Below, piece by piece: positions 2,627 through 11,061 of a stretch of DNA of 13,970 nt; the stretch's first letter is position 1, and every line of letters begins with the position of its first letter. Under the pieces are notes generated by a model, which saw nothing but the letters and a program-made list of their open reading frames with translations, was not told where the DNA came from and ran no database searches. A program made the translations under genes and the position numbers. Source of the stretch: a virus; UHGV virus genome UHGV-0254771; one strand, written 5' to 3'.

Positions 2627-4023
2627 AATAAACGCTCCGTTTTACTGCCCGACATGCGGTTATTGCTGTATCTGCGCGGATTGCCCGGCGTCATGGGTGT
2701 GGAAAGAACCCGGGCACTCTCCTGGTCCACAGGCAGAAAATGTCCGTTATGAAAACGCCGGTAAATGGTCCCGAGCGTGCCATTACGCTGTTTCGTGATG
2801 TTGATTTCTGCTATGCCTCTGGCCTGAGTTTCCGGGTTGTATACCTCATCCCTGTAAAGCATCAGAATGATGTCGGCATCCGCCTCGATTTCCCCGGAGT
2901 TTTTCAGGTCCGAGTTCATTGGGCGTTTATTGGGTCTGGATTCCACGCCGCGGGAGAGCTGGCTCAGAGCAATCAGCGGAAAACCGCCGGATTTTGCCAG
3001 GCTTTTAAGTCCCTTTGAGATTTCCCCCACCGCAAGGTCGTGACGCCCCGTGCTGCGGGTTTTAATCAGGCCGAGGTAATCGACCACCACCAGCGCCGTT
3101 TCCGGGTGTTTCATCCGGTGGTGCTTCGTGGTTGCACATATCTCATCAATGGTCAGGTTTGCCTGGTCCACCATCCAGATATTACGCCCCGTCATTCGTC
3201 CCACGCCCTGCGAGAAACGCGCCCAGTCTTCATCTTCAAAACGGGCAACAGACTTAAGACGGGATACCGGCATTCCACCGGCAGCAGACACCATACGTTC
3301 ACCAATCTGGATGTTCGCCATCTCCATGGTGAACAGAAGCACGCCATGCCCCTGCTCAGTCACCTTGTCGATGATGTCCAGCGCAAGTTCGGTTTTCCCC
3401 ATCGAAGGACGGGCGGCAATGAATACCAGGTCTCCGGGCTCCATACCGCCCGTTTTTGCGTCCAGTTCATCAATACCGGTCATCAGCGCCCTGGATTTCT
3501 CCAGTCCCTGATTGCGGCATTCAACACGGTCGACCACTTCCGGAAGGACATCATCAATGTGAACCGGCTGAATGACGCCCTTTCCGGTCGACAGTGAGGC
3601 CATCATGTTCTGCGCATCCTTCAGGGCATCCTCGGCTGCTTCACAGGTATACGCATCACGTAAATTCTGTAATGCTTCAGTCAGTGTTTTTTCTGCATCG
3701 CGCAGTGCGGCATTGCGCCGCAACGCTGCGACATAGTGCTCCAGTGAAGACTTCACCCAGGTTTTGCGTCCGGTGTCGGTAATCACCGGGGCAAGTTCCG
3801 GCATCTCATTGCACAGCAGTACGGGGTCAATGACGCCGGATATGCGAGCCTGTCTGCAAATCCCCGCGTAAATATCCCGGTACTGACGCACAAAAAATAC
3901 ATCCGCCGGAAGTGTGGCCAGAATATCCATCACTTCCGGATCGGCCCCACGCAGAAAAAACGCACCGATGACAGCGCCTTCCAGGTCATCGTTACGCCAT
4001 GCCGGGGTGTTCTGGCTGGTCAT
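2623..4023 (-). CDS. DnaB-family replicative DNA helicase (phage-encoded)
   Basis: 466-aa ORF with Walker A ...ARPSMGKTELAL... and the overall layout of DnaB-like hexameric helicases. GGAGG lies about 9 nt upstream of the ATG. Start overlaps the upstream loader gene stop (ATGA at 4020..4023). Confidence 0.85.
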   Translation of the reverse strand: MTSQNTPAWRNDDLEGAVIGAFFLRGADPEVMDILATLPADVFFVRQYRDIYAGICRQARISGVIDPVLLCNEMPELAPVITDTGRKTWVKSSLEHYVAALRRNAALRDAEKTLTEALQNLRDAYTCEAAEDALKDAQNMMASLSTGKGVIQPVHIDDVLPEVVDRVECRNQGLEKSRALMTGIDELDAKTGGMEPGDLVFIAARPSMGKTELALDIIDKVTEQGHGVLLFTMEMANIQIGERMVSAAGGMPVSRLKSVARFEDEDWARFSQGVGRMTGRNIWMVDQANLTIDEICATTKHHRMKHPETALVVVDYLGLIKTRSTGRHDLAVGEISKGLKSLAKSGGFPLIALSQLSRGVESRPNKRPMNSDLKNSGEIEADADIILMLYRDEVYNPETQARGIAEINITKQRNGTLGTIYRRFHNGHFLPVDQESARVLSTPMTPGNPRRYSNNRMSGSKTERLF

Positions 4024-6439: not shown

Positions 6440-6630
6440 GGACGCACCTCCGCCGTAGTTACGTATTTAACCGGGCTACCTTTCATTGAGATGGTTTCAC
6501 ACATCTCTGCCGCTTTCAGTTCCGCTGTTTTTCTGGATTTATAGCAACGGTGCCAGACAGATACATCCGTGCGAACTGATACATCGTTTCTGTATTCCGT
6601 AGTGGAGATGATGATTTCGTAACTAATCAT
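6436..6630 (-). CDS. Small hypothetical phage protein (64 aa)
   Basis: ORF linked to neighbours by 4-bp overlaps (6436..6439 and 6627..6630). No motif recognised. Confidence 0.45.
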   Translation of the reverse strand: MISYEIIISTTEYRNDVSVRTDVSVWHRCYKSRKTAELKAAEMCETISMKGSPVKYVTTAEVRP

Positions 6631-7178
6631 GGGCGAACCTCCTTGTCAGAACCATTCAGCCTGGAATCAACAAGTGCAGCGCCAAAAACAGCATCACCAA
6701 CACGGTCGTACAGTTTGCTAGCCAGCGGAGATTCAACGGCCTTAAGCATTGGATAAAGCTGGCTTGTCCAGATTTGATGGATTTCACGCAAATGCAGGTA
6801 TACGCCTCTGGCGTTTCGTGCGACAGCTGACATATCAGACGCATCGGCACCTGATAAACTCTTCTCCATCAGGTTAAAGGCGTTGATGTATGCCTCTTTG
6901 AACTGGGCAGCACGTTTACCAGTGAAGCCCATAGCAAGGAACGCGAAGCCATCACGGGTGATTTGATAGCAAGGTAGTTTGCGGCCTGTGCAATCGGTGT
7001 AATCACTCACCGAAAAATTGCGGGCAGTGAATGATGCGGAGCATTCAAGCGTGCGGATCTTTTTCAGTACATCGTCATGACGCTTGGAGAAGAAGTTGGC
7101 AACAGCCAGGGATGAAGTAACAGCCTGACCATCAACGATGGCAATTTCAGGTTGAGTGAGGGTTGGGATCGTAGCCAT
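6627..7178 (-). CDS. Rha-family phage regulatory protein (about 183 aa from the internal start)
   Basis: Segment ...VDGQAVTSSLAVANFFSKRHDDVLKKIRTLE... carries the (F)GKRHD(N/D)VLR-type signature I associate with Rha-family proteins. The ORF track extends to 7478 (283 aa), but the ATG at 7178..7176 has GGAGG about 8 nt upstream and places the Rha domain at the N-terminus, as is usual. The ATG at 7478 has no SD and would add 100 low-complexity residues. Confidence 0.65.
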   Translation of the reverse strand: MATIPTLTQPEIAIVDGQAVTSSLAVANFFSKRHDDVLKKIRTLECSASFTARNFSVSDYTDCTGRKLPCYQITRDGFAFLAMGFTGKRAAQFKEAYINAFNLMEKSLSGADASDMSAVARNARGVYLHLREIHQIWTSQLYPMLKAVESPLASKLYDRVGDAVFGAALVDSRLNGSDKEVRP

Positions 7179-7562
7179 GATGGCAGCCTCCGTTGACTGT
7201 GGAAAACTTCCACCACCGGAGCTGCGAAACTCACTGGTGGCAGACTGAACAGGGTTCGCAGTACCGGCGTCAACGGAGACCGGCGAGCCTTTCGGCTCCC
7301 CTGCCCAGCCCACCATAATTCTGGCGTGCGTGAGCGCGGACGATAAAAAAGACGCTGGCGCGTCATATATCGCCGTTGACAATTCCGGGCTGCGACCCCC
7401 GGCACCCGCTTTATAAGGTGCAGAGACAGTGTAACGTCCCGAAATTGCAGAATCAATATTTGGTCTTGAAATGATCATATAGCTGCTGATATCTTTAGAA
7501 CTGTTCTTGGATGTTTCGGAGCCGTTTTATGCGAAACAGCTCCCCGTTATTGATGTTGAGTG

Positions 7563-8413: not shown

Positions 8414-8707
8414 ATGAAAGTTCAGGCCGTTGGTTTATTCTGGTTTCGCGATGCGATTCAGTATCATGAGCTCAAAAATATTTTTACTGATGCTGATGTG
8501 CTCTCCGACAGTTACACCGAGTGGAAACACGACGCTGAAAAATTGATTAAGCGTGTCGAAAGAAGCGGGCAACGAGTTATTAAAGTTGAAGCGGATACAG
8601 CCGAGTTCATCACCTGGTGTACAAGCGAAGGCATTGGAATCAATGCCGAAGGTAGAATGCAGTTCGCATCCTTTAAGGCTTACCAACAACTTCTCAGCGA
8701 ACGCTAA
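8414..8707 (+). CDS. Hypothetical protein (97 aa) encoded convergently to cro, inside the early-right operon
   Basis: Textbook RBS AAAGGAGGTTCGAC-ATG (AGGAGG at 8402..8407). Balanced charged composition and E. coli-like codon choice. Followed by a GC-rich hairpin (8714..8738) and T-rich tail. A minus-strand ORF (8435..8767) overlaps it entirely but looks like a shadow frame. Confidence 0.6.
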   Translation: MKVQAVGLFWFRDAIQYHELKNIFTDADVLSDSYTEWKHDAEKLIKRVERSGQRVIKVEADTAEFITWCTSEGIGINAEGRMQFASFKAYQQLLSER

Positions 8708-8713
8708 TGTGAT

Positions 8714-8746
8714 TGGGGCAATCGAAATGGTTGCCCCATCGTATTT
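8714..8746 (+). terminator. Probable terminator hairpin for the 8414..8707 gene
   Basis: TGGGGCAA (8714..8721) pairs with TTGCCCCA (8731..8738), 9-nt loop, followed by TCGTATTT and further T-rich sequence. The U tract is interrupted, so strength is uncertain. Confidence 0.4.
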
Positions 8747-8777: not shown

Positions 8778-9050
8778 TCACTTCTCGTCCTCTGTGTGCG
8801 CTAAGCTTGGATTTGAAATTTTGCGTAACGAATCAGGAATTCCATCTTCAGGGTGAGGATAAAGATCTGGCCTTAAGCCATGTGGCGTGACCTTCCATGC
8901 AACTACTTCACATACGCGTAAAACGAAACGAGCAGGAATTGTGTTTTTTGAAAACCACTGATTCACCGCTTGCGGCGTCACACCAAGATTTCGCGCTATG
9001 GCATTTTGCGCAATTAATGCACGAAGTTTGTCGTAATCATTTCCTTTCAT
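8778..9050 (-). CDS. cro: Cro-like small HTH regulator (90 aa)
   Basis: Divergent from the CI-like repressor across an operator-rich intergenic region. Helix-turn-helix ...ALIAQNAIARNLGVTPQAVNQWFSK... Symbol given as functional analogy to lambda cro. Confidence 0.75.
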   Translation of the reverse strand: MKGNDYDKLRALIAQNAIARNLGVTPQAVNQWFSKNTIPARFVLRVCEVVAWKVTPHGLRPDLYPHPEDGIPDSLRKISNPSLAHTEDEK

Positions 9051-9183
9051 AACAAAGCACCAACATTAACTTTATAAATCAAGAATACATCAAGTTTAAA
9101 TTAACATGCAAGTTGCAAAAGGATCGAATACACTAAAATCAAGTAAAGATTTATCCTTGTAAAGAAACCCACAGGATTTGGTC
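9051..9183. promoter_or_regulatory. Divergent immunity control region (pR/pRM-type promoters and operators) between cro and cI
   Basis: 133-bp AT-rich intergenic region between divergent HTH genes. ATCAAG recurs at 9078..9083, 9089..9094 and 9138..9143 with TTATAA/TTTAAA cores; the same half-site occurs as a palindrome near the pL-like promoter. Exact -35/-10 boxes could not be assigned by eye. Confidence 0.6.
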
Positions 9184-9873
9184 ATGAAGAACGTCAAAAA
9201 CACGGAAAATCGAATAGCCGCGATGCTGAAAGCAAAAGGATGGACTCAGGCTCAACTGGCCCGCAAGTTAGGTGTGAGTGCGCAATCAGTGCAGTACTGG
9301 ACAACAGGAAAAACATTTCCACGGAGTGATAAGCTCGCGCATTTATCCGAGATTAGCGGTTATCCACAATCCTGGTTCTTAGGTGAAGACTCCTCACCAA
9401 CCTTTTCCTCGCAAGAGAAACACCAGACAAGAACAGATAGCGTCGTGTTTAATGTCCTTGATGTTGAGTTTAGTTGCGGTGATGGAACTCATGTCCGTGG
9501 TGACTTGATAGATGTAGTGCGCTCAATAGAACTTGATCCTGAATATGCCCGACGCCTTGTTGGAAATCGGGCATTCAAAAATATAGAAATAGGTAACGCC
9601 AGAGGAGACAGTATGGCTCCCACAATCTCACCTGGCGACCTTCTTTTTCTTGATAAGACAGTAACTTATTTTGATGGCGATGGCATTTATGCATTTTGTT
9701 TTGATGGAGAATGCTACGTGAAAAGACTTCAAAAAATTGGAAGCAAAATCATGGTGTTATCTGATAACCCCAATTATCAACCATGGAGCATCGAAAAAGA
9801 GGGGTTAGCTCTGCTTTATATCCAGTCTAAAGTGATCTCATCAGTACCATTCAATATAAACAGATTTGGTTAG
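9184..9873 (+). CDS. cI: CI-type prophage repressor: N-terminal XRE-family HTH plus C-terminal S24 (LexA-like) autopeptidase domain
   Basis: HTH ...WTQAQLARKLGVSAQSVQYW...; C-terminal GDSMAPT (Ser nucleophile) and downstream VKRL (Lys) match the S24 autocleavage dyad. ATG at 9184 has AGGA about 7 nt upstream (track starts at a TTG, 9178). Followed by a strong terminator. Symbol is by analogy. Confidence 0.9.
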   Translation: MKNVKNTENRIAAMLKAKGWTQAQLARKLGVSAQSVQYWTTGKTFPRSDKLAHLSEISGYPQSWFLGEDSSPTFSSQEKHQTRTDSVVFNVLDVEFSCGDGTHVRGDLIDVVRSIELDPEYARRLVGNRAFKNIEIGNARGDSMAPTISPGDLLFLDKTVTYFDGDGIYAFCFDGECYVKRLQKIGSKIMVLSDNPNYQPWSIEKEGLALLYIQSKVISSVPFNINRFG

Positions 9874-9885
9874 TCTTTGATTTTA

Positions 9886-9906
9886 ACGGGCTTTGCCCGT
9901 TTTTTT
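9886..9906 (+). terminator. Intrinsic terminator downstream of the repressor gene
   Basis: ACGGGC (9886..9891), TTT loop, GCCCGT (9895..9900), followed by six T (9901..9906), starting 13 bp after the cI stop codon. Confidence 0.8.
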
Positions 9907-9936
9907 CTGCCTAAAACACACGATATCAATTTTTTC

Positions 9937-9988
9937 TTGACAGCCTATTTCTCAAAGCATAATATCGCGCCATCAATTATAACTTGAT
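9937..9988 (+). promoter_or_regulatory. pL-like early-left promoter with a 17-bp palindromic operator
   Basis: TTGACA at 9937..9942; -10 candidates CATAAT (9958..9963, 15-nt spacer) or TAATAT (9960..9965, 17-nt spacer). Palindrome ATCAATTATAACTTGAT at 9972..9988 shares the ATCAA(G/T) half-site with the cro-cI region. Sits between the cI terminator and the first early-left gene. Confidence 0.5.
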
Positions 9989-10018
9989 TAAATTCAATTT
10001 AAAATTGTTGGTGGGTAT

Positions 10019-10567
10019 ATGAAGACACTAAAAGCAACTCCAGAAACAACTAATTTTATCAACTGCGGCTGTGTTACGCTTGAAGGCTTAGAACTTGATT
10101 CCTTTGCATTAAATATTGCAAATTTGCTAAGTGCTGTACGCACATTCCATCTTCTGGATTGTGCTCGCTCAAAGGAACTGGGCATTGAGGTAATGGAATT
10201 TATCCATGAATATGCCCTATCTGCGGCTTCTCCTGCACAACAAAAACAATCCTTCCCTAAAAGCTGGCTGGTTAACCTTCGCACCCAACGCGAAGCCTGC
10301 GGCTTAACAACCGCCGAACTCGCCAGGCTGCTCGATCTCGATGAAGAAATCATCATTCAGTGGGAGAGCGGAGAGTATGAACCAACCATCAGTATGCTTA
10401 TCCCACTGGCAAATATTCTTGGCTGCGATCCGATGTGGCTGTTAACTGGCGAGGTTACTCCTCCGGAGCAACCAAAAAGTGAGGAGCAGCAACACCATGA
10501 CGCATCTCAACAAGTTTGCCCCTTATCTCGCGAAGCTCTTCTGCGGAAGAACCAATACCAATGGTGA
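10019..10567 (+). CDS. Hypothetical protein (182 aa) with a C-terminal XRE-family helix-turn-helix domain; first gene after the pL-like promoter
   Basis: C-terminal region ...LRTQREACGLTTAELARLLDLDEEIIIQWESGEYEPTISMLIPLANILGCDPMWLLTGE is a clear HTH_3/XRE-type motif. N-terminal 85 aa are unrecognised. SD is weak (GGTGGG 3 nt from the ATG). The 3' end overlaps two alternative small ORFs, so the C-terminal extent is uncertain. Confidence 0.55.
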   Translation: MKTLKATPETTNFINCGCVTLEGLELDSFALNIANLLSAVRTFHLLDCARSKELGIEVMEFIHEYALSAASPAQQKQSFPKSWLVNLRTQREACGLTTAELARLLDLDEEIIIQWESGEYEPTISMLIPLANILGCDPMWLLTGEVTPPEQPKSEEQQHHDASQQVCPLSREALLRKNQYQW

Positions 10568-10695
10568 CATAATCGCCGCTTCGCCCTTCAAGGTACATGC
10601 GAACATTTTTATCAATCATTGCGGAAACAGTCTCAATATGAAAACACTTCTGAGACTCGCTATATAGCAGAACATATAAGTCAGCTGAGGAAGCC

Positions 10696-11061
10696 ATGAA
10701 AAAGTTCGAAAACATAACTGTTCTCCATGTTGATGACTTTGATTATACAAACCCGGAACTTCTCCCGGAGGTTGTAAAGGCAATAGATGTTGCCGATATA
10801 GTGATTAGAGAAAAGAGAATTGTCAAAAACAGGCTCGCATGCACTTCAGGAGCAATGACAGAAACAACCTCACAGCAAGATAATTACGAAGGCATTTGCC
10901 TGGAGCCTGATTCATTTGCAATAAATGTTTATCATTTATTGCATGCAACACAGGTATTACATATGTCCAGTAATCACGAAACGAAAACACTCGGCAGCGA
11001 AATTCTGAATTTTGCATGTGAGTATACAAAAGCTGCTGCCGAAAAAGAATTAGCGCAATAA
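10696..11061 (+). CDS. Hypothetical protein (121 aa), AT-rich accessory gene
   Basis: ORF with GAGGAA about 5 nt upstream of the ATG. No motif recognised. Its start overlaps the start of a minus-strand ORF at a CATG palindrome. Confidence 0.55.
   Translation: MKKFENITVLHVDDFDYTNPELLPEVVKAIDVADIVIREKRIVKNRLACTSGAMTETTSQQDNYEGICLEPDSFAINVYHLLHATQVLHMSSNHETKTLGSEILNFACEYTKAAAEKELAQ

What the first reader, a model, noticed from the sequence alone, without database searches (positions are those of the whole stretch)
9907..10715. HTH protein in the first early-left position, with a three-way ORF overlap at its 3' end
The first gene after the pL-like promoter (10019..10567) encodes an unrecognised 85-aa N-terminal region fused to a clear XRE-type HTH, not an arginine-rich N-like antiterminator; I could find no boxA/boxB-like nut element near either early promoter. 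The slot next to the repressor is where lambda carries rexAB and other phages carry exclusion or abortive-infection genes. The 3' end (10455..10715) is open in three overlapping frames: the HTH gene tail, a plus-strand alternative frame (track ORF 10479..10667, in-frame ATG at 10497), and a minus-strand 86-aa ORF (10455..10715) with its own GGAG 7 nt from the ATG. A CATG palindrome at 10695..10698 gives back-to-back start codons on both strands. This could hide a small convergent gene such as a toxin or antisense regulator.
Basis: partly seen in the sequence, partly recalled or inferred. Interest (0 to 1): 0.55.

Follow-up and report, generated by a model that had tools for sequence, protein, structure and literature searches.

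The report
Hidden antisense gene in prophage early operon
The minus-strand ORF overlapping the end of the HTH regulator gene is a real, conserved and largely unannotated 86-aa gene, and it forms a head-to-head pair with the next early gene in unrelated temperate phages and a Pirellula genome. The other two open frames are by-products of it.

Summary
The window is a phiP27-like lambdoid prophage of E. coli S4.

Of the three overlapping frames, only the minus-strand ORF (10715→10455, 86 aa) is under selection:
- dN/dS is 0.08 outside the overlap and 0.34 inside it, with no stops in 9 divergent homologs from Escherichia, Salmonella and Citrobacter.
- The HTH tail frame has dN/dS 1.36. Its stop falls 20-143 nt into the small gene.
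- The plus alternative frame (10479-10667) has dN/dS about 1.5. It is a codon-register shadow ORF.

The small protein belongs to a broad uncharacterised family of 372 clusters, with a confident ββαβα model. It has no Pfam, PDB, PADLOC or NCBIfam match. PGAP annotated it in none of the 40 E. coli genomes sampled out of 218 that carry it.

Its start is head-to-head with the next early gene (10696-11061). That gene's N-terminal "VKNR" domain is the divergent neighbour of small-family genes in three unrelated metagenomic phage-like contigs and a Pirellula MAG.

Best reading: this is a conserved two-gene cassette set antisense in the early operon. The two genes are probably expressed reciprocally, the small gene in the lysogen and the partner from pL. 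The biochemical function is unknown. The promoter and the toxin idea remain untested.

The parts
9885..9901 (+). Intrinsic terminator after the cI-like repressor gene (9178-9873)
   Evidence: Hairpin AACGGGCTTTGCCCGTT followed by a T-run.
9925..9988 (+). pL-like promoter region. TTGACA(9937)-17-TAATAT(9965) with operator-like palindromes ATCAA-N7-TTGA(T/C) at 9925-9941 and 9972-9988.
   Evidence: Promoter scan 10/12. Half-sites shared with the cro/cI intergenic region 9079-9154 (pairs I1, I3, I7 and D5).
10019..10567 (+). First early-left gene, a 182-aa XRE-family HTH protein. aa 24-70 (10088-10228) form a module paralogous to the C-terminus of the next + gene. HTH_3 covers aa 87-141 (10277-10441). 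The conserved end is ...DPMWLLTG (aa 144).
   Evidence: Pfam HTH_3 E 4.8e-11. phrog_4836 and phrog_4739. PGAP name 'helix-turn-helix domain-containing protein' WP_027662181.1. Paralogy E 1e-10.
10451..10567 (+). Unconserved 38-aa C-terminal tail of the HTH protein (aa 145-182 plus stop), read antisense through the 3' end of the small gene.
   Evidence: Tail length and stop position vary (overlap 20-143 nt) among 9 homologs. dN/dS 1.36 in this frame. Homologs without the small gene end 6-10 aa after LLTG.
10455..10715 (-). Real 86-aa protein-coding gene (pI 5.3). The start is ATG 10715-10713 with GGAG at 10726-10723. It is a member of phrog_6104 and of a broad uncharacterised small-protein family (motif VLL[WY]SxSQxCFHIET ... 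NxR ... DY).
   Evidence: phrog_6104 E 1.4e-49. Homologs 58-97% identical in Escherichia, Salmonella and Citrobacter. dN/dS 0.08 and 0.34, 0 stops in 9 representatives. Variable sites are concentrated at codon position 3, p 1e-5 and 1e-3. 372 family representatives at E<=1e-3. AF2 pLDDT 85.7, bb-a-b-a. Met-1 and the SD are conserved.
10479..10667 (+). Shadow ORF (62 aa), not a gene. It is the codon-register reverse complement of the small gene.
   Evidence: dN/dS 1.3-1.5. Interrupted in the ASU11 and L092 homologs. It ends at the antisense of the small gene's first internal CTA, codon 17. No PHROG or Pfam hit.
10696..11061 (+). Second early-left gene (phiP27 L08-like, 121 aa). It has an N-terminal 'VKNR' domain (aa 1-50, 10696-10845), a disordered linker (aa 49-72) and a C-terminal two-helix module (aa 74-120). 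The VKNR domain is the conserved head-to-head partner of the small gene. Its 5' end overlaps the small gene's 5' end by 20 nt.
   Evidence: phrog_5451 E 2.8e-83. The frame is intact in 9 divergent homologs. N-terminal codons 8-47 have dN/dS 0.33 and 0 stops. Homologous 54-78 aa proteins lie divergent from small-family genes in L096, L105, L107 and L008. hhalign gives 94.4% probability, E 8.9e-8. AF2 model.
10798..10826 (-). Candidate promoter for the small gene: TTGACA(10826-10821)-17-CACTAT(10803-10798), antisense to the conserved DIVI and IVKN codons of the partner. Unproven.
   Evidence: Sequence read. TTGACA is kept in 8 of 9 homologs. An equivalent TTGACG-17-CACAAT sits at the homologous spot of the distant locus L096. 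The synonymous-site test was not significant.
10742..10769 (-). Alternative candidate element: a perfect TATAAT (10747-10742) preceded by the hairpin TCCGGGAGAAGTTCCGGG (10769-10752). It is poorly conserved in homologs.
   Evidence: The leader fold has z -2.3.

Best explanation
The 3' end of the HTH gene overlaps a genuine 86-aa gene on the minus strand (10715→10455).

This gene is one half of a compact head-to-head cassette. The other half is the N-terminal 'VKNR' domain of the next early-left gene (10696-11061). In relatives the two start codons are separated by 1-13 nt, and here the genes overlap by 20 nt. Each ribosome-binding site lies next to or inside the other gene.

The cassette sits inside a repressor-controlled early operon. 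The pL transcript therefore reads the HTH gene, then the small gene in antisense, then the VKNR-domain gene in sense. The HTH protein's last 38 residues and the plus alternative ORF are passive consequences of reading antisense through a gene that lacks TTA, CTA and TCA codons there.

Inferred mechanism (not shown):
- The small gene is transcribed from its own promoter inside the partner's coding sequence when pL is repressed, that is, in the lysogen.
- On induction, convergent pL transcription and full-length complementary RNA silence it while the VKNR protein is made. The two products would thus be expressed reciprocally.
- No terminator was found downstream of the small gene. Its transcript should therefore run antisense into the upstream regulator gene (HTH here; cro or a WYL regulator in distant relatives) and dampen early transcription.
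- The small acidic alpha/beta protein most likely acts by binding another protein. Its co-inherited VKNR partner is the prime candidate.
For: Shown:
- Purifying selection acts only in the minus frame. dN/dS is 0.08 (non-overlap) and 0.34 (overlap), against 1.36 for the HTH tail and 1.49 for the plus alternative frame. There are no stops in 9 representatives, and variable sites are biased to third positions with p 1.3e-5 and 1.3e-3.
- ASU11 keeps the minus ORF at 76% amino-acid identity, while its HTH gene stops only 20 nt into it.
- HTH tails differ in length and sequence. They are only 6-10 aa long where the small gene is absent.
- The family has 372 representatives with conserved motifs and a confident AF2 fold.
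- Synteny HTH / small gene / L08-like gene holds in Escherichia, Salmonella and Citrobacter.
- Prophages lacking the small gene also lack the VKNR domain. There, a 66-aa protein equal to the L08 C-terminal domain follows the HTH gene.
- VKNR homologs are the divergent neighbours of small-family genes in three unrelated metagenomic phage-like contigs and a Pirellula MAG. hhalign gives 94.4% probability, E 8.9e-8.
- In L096 and L105 the small gene is opposite in orientation to both neighbours within a repressor/cro region. In L107 it is inverted relative to the flanking minus-strand genes, but a 76-aa co-oriented gene follows it and no repressor or cro was seen.
- Met-1 and the GGAG are conserved.

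Suggestive only:
- TTGAC(A/G)-17-CAC(T/A)AT lies at the homologous position in the window and in L096.
- No minus-strand terminator lies between 10455 and the pL region.
Against: - No transcript, translation or phenotype data exist.
- The promoter is not established. Candidate hexamers coincide with conserved partner codons, and the synonymous-site test was not significant. The consensus scan found no minus-strand promoter above threshold upstream of 10715, and none in L105.
- Small-family genes also occur alone, without a VKNR partner. Examples are a Vibrio locus among IS elements, a locus next to MNT/HepT, and the Klebsiella virulence plasmid. The protein therefore does not strictly need the partner.
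- phiP27 itself carries a truncated copy, so the gene is dispensable for phage viability.
- The dN/dS sums use non-independent pairs of 9 sequences.
Confidence: 0.6

Rival explanations
1. The small gene and its VKNR-domain partner (or the HTH protein) form a toxin-antitoxin-like or abortive-infection pair. One product is harmful, and the other neutralises it. The head-to-head overlapping 5' ends provide antisense control.
For: - The pair is tightly co-inherited across phyla.
- The RBS regions are interdigitated, so the two mRNAs would be complementary at their translation start sites.
- Neighbours in some loci are TA modules: HigB, HicA and MNT/HepT.
- The location is a mobile element.
Against: - There is no match to any toxin, antitoxin or defence model in Pfam, NCBIfam or PADLOC.
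- The genes are not a co-oriented bicistron.
- The small gene occurs solo in several contexts.
- phiP27 keeps the partner gene with a truncated small gene. That would be lethal if the small protein were the antitoxin of a VKNR toxin.
Confidence: 0.15
2. The main function is at the RNA or transcription level. A promoter inside the second early gene fires against pL (or pR in relatives). It acts by transcriptional interference or antisense RNA to damp early gene expression and stabilise lysogeny. The encoded peptide is secondary.
For: - The small gene is convergent with an upstream regulator gene in the window (HTH), in L105 (cro, 10-nt gap) and in L096 (WYL).
- No terminator follows the small gene in the window or L105.
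- The small-gene mRNA would be fully complementary to the early transcript.
Against: - Strong purifying selection on the amino-acid sequence (dN/dS 0.08) and a well-folded conserved domain show that the protein itself is selected.
- Family members occur outside any convergent arrangement.
Confidence: 0.15
3. The minus ORF is a chance or shadow ORF of the HTH gene tail. Only the 182-aa frame is functional.
For: - PGAP does not annotate the minus ORF in any sampled RefSeq genome.
- phrog_4739 aligns to the end of the 182-aa protein.
Against: - More than half of the minus ORF (10568-10715) lies outside the HTH gene, and this is its most conserved part.
- The HTH tail frame has dN/dS 1.36 and variable stops.
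- Distant homologs exist with no HTH gene opposite them.
Confidence: 0.03
4. The plus-strand alternative frame (10479-10667, or from the ATG at 10497) encodes a third protein, which would make this a true three-way coding overlap.
For: The frame is open for 62 codons and stays mostly open in homologs.
Against: - It is in exact codon register antisense to the small gene. It stays open simply because the sense codons TTA, CTA and TCA are absent there.
- dN/dS is 1.3-1.5.
- It has internal stops in ASU11 and L092.
- It has no family hit.
Confidence: 0.02

Closest known systems
Prophage 'morons' (e.g. lambda bor/lom, HK97-type morons; own knowledge, Hendrix-lab concept)
   Same: It is a small accessory gene embedded in a temperate-phage operon and oriented against its neighbours. 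It is dispensable (truncated in phiP27), present in only some related prophages, and presumably expressed from the prophage.
   Different: - Classical morons are inserted between genes with their own promoter and terminator. This gene overlaps both neighbours, has no detectable terminator, and any promoter must lie inside the neighbour's coding sequence.
- It travels with a fixed partner domain, and its GC content is not distinctive.
Convergent or antisense control in temperate-phage switches (lambda oop RNA vs cII, P22 sar vs ant, coliphage 186 pR/pL face-to-face promoters; own knowledge)
   Same: A transcription unit points against an early promoter and is complementary to an early regulator's mRNA.
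   Different: In those systems the product is a non-coding RNA, or the lysogenic operon itself. Here the antisense unit encodes a conserved folded protein of a widespread family.
Divergent type I toxin-antitoxin loci with 5'-overlapping transcripts (e.g. zor-orz, tisB/istR-1; own knowledge)
   Same: The arrangement is head-to-head, and the two transcripts would pair across the translation-initiation regions.
   Different: - Both partners here are proteins of about 55-90 aa.
- Neither is a hydrophobic membrane peptide.
- No toxicity is known.
PHROG families phrog_6104 (small gene), phrog_5451 and phrog_4587 (L08-like 121-aa and 66-aa forms), and phrog_4836 ('CII-like regulator', HTH gene)
   Same: All give direct HMM matches.
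   Different: These are catalogue families. 6104, 5451 and 4587 have no known function. 'CII-like' for 4836 is an annotation label, not a tested function. PHROG models the small protein from Met-7 (80 aa), whereas conservation favours Met-1 (86 aa).
GIY-YIG nuclease core and MbtH-like proteins (topological resemblance only)
   Same: The order of secondary-structure elements is the same, beta-beta-alpha-beta-alpha. Several GIY-YIG and MbtH-like entries recur among the weak structural hits.
   Different: - No Pfam GIY-YIG hit occurs in any of 40 family members.

Membership tests
XRE/Cro-C1 HTH regulators (182-aa protein) | Pfam HTH_3-type helix-turn-helix domain above the gathering score | tested here: met
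   HTH_3 at 43 bits against a cutoff of 23, aa 87-141. HTH_19 and HTH_31 are also above cutoff.
Lambda N / nut antitermination | Small arginine-rich N protein as the first pL gene | tested here: not met
   The first pL gene is a 182-aa HTH protein.
Lambda N / nut antitermination | boxA/boxB nut site downstream of pL and pR | tested here: not met
   A boxA-like pattern gives 3 matches in the window against 9.5 expected, none near 9965-10020 or 9050-9180. No Rfam hit there. boxB hairpins were not searched exhaustively.
DicA-type repressor (NCBIfam PRK09706) | Score above the curated cutoff | tested here: not met
   41.5 bits against a cutoff of 101, and only the HTH part aligns.
phrog_6104 (small minus-strand protein) | Full-length HMM match | tested here: met
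   E 1.4e-49, aa 7-86 on profile positions 1-80 of 80.
Real protein-coding gene (small ORF) | Purifying selection in its own frame, intact frame in divergent homologs, homologs beyond the DNA-similarity range | tested here: met
   dN/dS 0.08 and 0.34 with 0 stops. Third-position bias. 372 HMM hits, including a Pirellula MAG and a Klebsiella plasmid.
Real protein-coding gene (small ORF) | Evidence of transcription and translation | not testable with these tools
   No expression data are available. Only a conserved ATG and GGAG.
Moron (autonomous prophage accessory unit) | Own promoter upstream | tested here: inconclusive
   Candidates at 10826-10798 and 10747-10742. None passed the consensus scan. 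Synonymous-site conservation was not significant.
Moron (autonomous prophage accessory unit) | Own terminator downstream, and insertion between genes rather than overlapping them | tested here: not met
   No minus-strand terminator was found downstream of the small gene's stop at 10455, as far as the pL region; the only nearby minus-strand hairpin (10769-10752) lies upstream of the gene. The gene overlaps both neighbours.
Type II toxin-antitoxin module | Co-oriented bicistronic pair with a recognisable toxin or antitoxin family | tested here: not met
   The genes are convergent or divergent. There are no Pfam, NCBIfam or PADLOC toxin hits.
Known anti-phage defence or exclusion systems (rexAB, sie, Abi etc.) | Match to a PADLOC model for the small protein or the L08-like protein | tested here: not met
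   No hits for the L08-like protein. The small protein has only an E 0.03 chance-level hit. The HTH protein hits only generic HTH parts of RmrA and CapH.
GIY-YIG nuclease superfamily (small protein) | Significant structural or sequence match to the GIY-YIG core | tested here: not met
   [not shown]
Conserved head-to-head cassette (small protein + VKNR domain), proposed here | Homologous partners in divergent orientation with start codons 20 nt or less apart in independent lineages | tested here: met
   Seen in the window group, L096/097, L105/106, L107/108 and Pirellula L008. In addition, P0170 and P0199 both list a single 1264-bp longest contig, which suggests co-location but was not checked. 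Partner homology: hhalign 94.4%, E 8.9e-8.

The most novel reading that the evidence does not exclude
The small protein and the VKNR-domain protein may constitute a previously undescribed, self-contained two-gene module, conserved from enterobacterial prophages to Planctomycetes. The genes are head-to-head and their mRNAs overlap at the ribosome-binding sites. This would make their expression mutually exclusive. The module would act as a lysogeny/lytic toggle or as a new prophage-encoded defence or addiction system. In this phage the module is also wired to the first pL regulator, because the VKNR protein's C-terminus and the HTH protein's N-terminus share a helical module.
Probability: 0.25. 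Interest if true: 0.75.

Novelty: new variant of a known kind. Interest (0 to 1): 0.5.

Why it matters
- A conserved gene was annotated in none of the 40 RefSeq genomes sampled, out of 218 of 5426 complete E. coli genomes that carry it (151 at 80% or more of its length). The carriers include ST131 strains. This is a concrete example of how antisense-overlapping genes escape standard annotation pipelines.
- The gene defines a broad, uncharacterised small-protein family with a confident fold that has no structural relatives. Members sit in temperate-phage immunity regions and on the hypervirulent Klebsiella virulence plasmid.
- The head-to-head pairing with a second small domain gives a testable two-component hypothesis.
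- The arrangement places the cassette at the first genes fired from pL, so it could influence prophage stability or induction.

Tried and rejected
- Pfam, NCBIfam, PADLOC and a PDB sequence search gave nothing for the small protein or for 40 family members.
- I tested for an embedded promoter through reduced synonymous variation in the partner gene. There is a small dip at VKNR (0.23 against 0.32 overall), which is not convincing.
- The consensus promoter scan found no minus-strand promoter upstream of 10715.
- Scans for distant relatives in IMG/VR and JGI metagenome contigs returned almost nothing usable.
- Three literature searches found no description of the gene, the pair or the HTH protein.
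- I considered Met-7 (the CATG palindrome) as the start. I rejected it in favour of Met-1, because Met-7 is lost in some homologs and has no SD.
- I considered that the L08 N-terminus might be non-coding promoter DNA, as the PGAP 68-aa call implies. I rejected this because of dN/dS 0.33, 0 stops, and free-standing homologs.
Full report
**Source and layout**

The window is identical to E. coli strain S4 chromosome at 587.5 kb and 98% identical to phage PhiR49_2. Parts of it match phiP27 and the Stx phage ASU11. It is the immunity and early region of a lambdoid prophage, drawn so that "leftward" lambda transcription runs on the + strand:
- The cro-like gene is at 9050→8778 (-).
- The cI-like S24 repressor is at 9178-9873 (+), followed by its terminator at 9885-9901.
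- A TTGACA-17-TAATAT promoter follows at 9937-9965.
- ATCAA-N7-TTGAT palindromes overlap the -35 element and lie just downstream of the -10 element. Their half-sites recur between cro and cI. This is a repressor-controlled pL.
- The first pL gene is 10019-10567.

**Observation check**

- The 182-aa ORF has Pfam HTH_3 at aa 87-141.
- The plus alternative ORF is 10479-10667, with an ATG at 10497.
- The minus ORF is 10455-10715, with GGAG 7 nt upstream of its ATG.
- CATG lies at 10695-10698.
- No boxA-like element lies near either early promoter.

**Which frames are real?**

The minus ORF matches phrog_6104 (E 1e-49). It has full-length homologs at 58-97% identity in Escherichia, Salmonella and Citrobacter prophages. 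In all of them it is sandwiched between an HTH gene and an L08-like gene.

I codon-aligned 9 divergent loci, drawn from 32 unique sequences, and compared all six frames:
- The minus frame has dN/dS 0.08 in the part outside the HTH gene and 0.34 in the overlap, with no stops.
- The HTH-tail frame has dN/dS 1.36.
- The plus alternative frame has dN/dS 1.3-1.5.
- Variable sites concentrate at the minus frame's third positions (39 of 64, p 1e-5; 58 of 119, p 1e-3). Those positions are second positions of the HTH frame.

The HTH tails after the conserved ...DPMWLLTG differ in length and sequence, and the HTH stop falls 20 to 143 nt into the small gene. In related prophages without the small gene, the HTH protein ends 6-10 residues after LLTG. 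The 38-aa tail here (aa 145-182) is therefore an unselected read-through.

The plus alternative ORF is the exact codon-register reverse complement of the small gene. It stays open because the sense codons TTA, CTA and TCA are absent from that stretch, and it terminates at the antisense of the small gene's CTA codon 17. It is a shadow ORF.

Met-1 (10715) and its GGAG are kept in all homologs, while Met-7 (the CATG) is not.

**What the small protein is**

- A profile search found 372 cluster representatives at E <= 1e-3, mostly 60-100 aa. They share the motif VLL[WY]SxSQxCFHIET...NxR...DY..LA...EEA.
- AlphaFold gives a confident beta-beta-alpha-beta-alpha core for aa 14-74 (pLDDT 85.7; above 94 over aa 11-70).
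- Pfam, NCBIfam, PADLOC and PDB sequences match nothing.
- The protein is mildly acidic (pI 5.3) and has no membrane or DNA-binding signature.
- The gene is present in 218 of 5426 complete E. coli genomes (151 of them at 80% or more coverage). PGAP annotated it in none of the 40 sampled rows.
- Among 50,697 deposited phage genomes, only PhiR49_2, ASU11 and phiP27 (truncated copy) have it.

**The partner**

The next + gene (10696-11061, 121 aa, phrog_5451) starts 20 nt inside the small gene's 5' end. Its frame is intact in all 9 divergent loci, and its N-terminal codons 8-47 have dN/dS 0.33 with no stops. This contradicts PGAP's 68-aa call.

Prophages that lack the small gene also lack this N-terminal part. 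There, the HTH gene is followed directly by a 66-aa protein equal to the L08 C-terminal domain. So the small gene and the N-terminal "VKNR" domain come as one module.

In distant small-family loci, the divergent neighbour is a 54-78 aa protein with the same motif pattern (...hhVhFxxGxhVKNRhG). The start codons lie 1-13 nt apart:
- L096/097: a metagenomic phage, downstream of an S24 repressor.
- L105/106: a prophage, directly after cro.
- L107/108: a metagenomic contig.
- L008: a Pirellula MAG.

Profile-profile comparison of the enterobacterial N-termini with the three metagenomic-contig neighbours gives 94.4% probability, E 8.9e-8. In L107 and L105 the short spacer encodes both Shine-Dalgarno sequences back to back.

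In L096 and L105 the small gene is inverted relative to the surrounding early operon within a repressor/cro region. In L107 it is inverted relative to the flanking minus-strand genes, but a co-oriented 76-aa gene follows it and no repressor or cro was seen. The VKNR gene is co-oriented with the flanking genes in all three.

Some family members are solo. These are a Vibrio locus among IS elements, a locus next to MNT/HepT, and the Klebsiella virulence plasmid between iroN and peg-344.

**Mechanism**

Shown:
- The small ORF is a real gene.
- It forms a conserved head-to-head cassette with the VKNR domain.
- It is placed antisense in early operons.
- The HTH tail and the plus alternative ORF are by-products.

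Inferred:
- The small gene needs a promoter inside the partner's coding sequence.
- One candidate is TTGACA-17-CACTAT at 10826-10798, antisense to the IVKN and DIVI codons. An equivalent TTGACG-17-CACAAT sits at the homologous spot in L096.
- A second candidate is the TATAAT at 10747-10742.
- Neither is proven. The synonymous-site test was not significant.
- pL transcription reads the small gene in antisense, and no terminator was found downstream of it.
- I therefore expect reciprocal expression, with the small protein made in the lysogen and the VKNR protein made on induction. I also expect antisense interference with the upstream regulator gene.
- What the proteins do is unknown. A direct small-protein/VKNR interaction is the most economical guess, but I could not model it.

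**Comparison with known systems**

- The small gene resembles a moron in being an inverted, dispensable accessory gene. It fails the moron hallmarks of an own terminator and an intergenic insertion.
- It resembles oop/sar-type antisense control and 5'-overlapping type I TA loci in geometry. However, both partners here are folded proteins.
- It is not a member of any characterised toxin, defence or nuclease family that I tested.
- The HTH protein is a bona fide XRE-family protein but does not reach the DicA model's cutoff. Its "CII-like" label in PHROGs is only an annotation.
- Its previously unrecognised N-terminus (aa 24-70) is 43% identical to the C-terminal two-helix module of the L08-like protein (E 1e-10; AF2 model). 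This hints that the second pL product could pair with the first.

**Verdict**

The find is a moderately interesting, apparently undescribed variant: a conserved antisense-embedded, head-to-head two-gene cassette of unknown function.

Noticed in passing
window 7233-7320 (-) and 7345-7421 (-): Rfam finds a C4 antisense RNA (78.8 bits) and an isrK sRNA (58.7 bits). Both lie inside the 5' third of the 283-aa ORF 6627-7478, which PGAP annotates whole as a 'Rha family phage regulatory protein'. This looks like a P1/P7 immI-type or IsrK-type antirepressor control region, and the protein probably starts further downstream.
   Followed up: no
window 10088-10228 (+) and 10900-11040 (+): The HTH protein's N-terminal aa 24-70 and the L08-like protein's C-terminal aa 69-115 are paralogs (43% identity, E 1e-10). 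AF2 predicts a two-helix hairpin for the latter. In Stx2_14040 and E. coli 14EC017 this module is a free-standing 66-aa gene directly after the HTH gene. It may be a dimerisation module or an anti-regulator.
   Followed up: partly
L110 4974-5195 (Klebsiella pneumoniae Kp52.145 plasmid II); also L109: A divergent member of the small-protein family (73 aa, WP_004144043; hhalign 97.4%, E 9e-12) sits between iroN and peg-344, next to rmpADC, on hypervirulent-Klebsiella virulence plasmids. tblastn hits it on 448 Klebsiella plasmids.
   Followed up: partly
window 10855-11061 vs 10696-11061: PGAP annotates the L08-like gene as 68 aa, starting at 10855. The 121-aa frame is intact and under selection in all divergent homologs.
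   Followed up: yes
L002 (phiP27) 3204-3782: In phiP27 the small gene is cut after about 36 codons by a ~580-bp replacement that carries ORF L09. About 60 E. coli genomes match only the first 107 nt of the gene, as this truncated form would.
   Followed up: partly
window 8414-8707 (+), terminator-like hairpin 8714-8738: A second gene is inverted relative to its operon. It is a 97-aa hypothetical protein (WP_000867914) lying between cro and the Rha-family gene in the early-right operon, followed by its own terminator-like hairpin. It has no family match.
   Followed up: no
window 10003-9976 (-): A minus-strand promoter-like site, TTTAAA-16-TATAAT (10/12), lies in the pL leader and overlaps the operator-like palindrome at 9972-9988. 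It points back toward cI.
   Followed up: no
window 10277 and 10432-10449: These are mosaic breakpoints. Many E. coli prophages share only 10277 onward (HTH domain + small gene + L08-like gene), and others share only up to about 10432-10449. The HTH proteins have interchangeable N-terminal parts, and some carry a second HTH domain (237-265 aa).
   Followed up: partly
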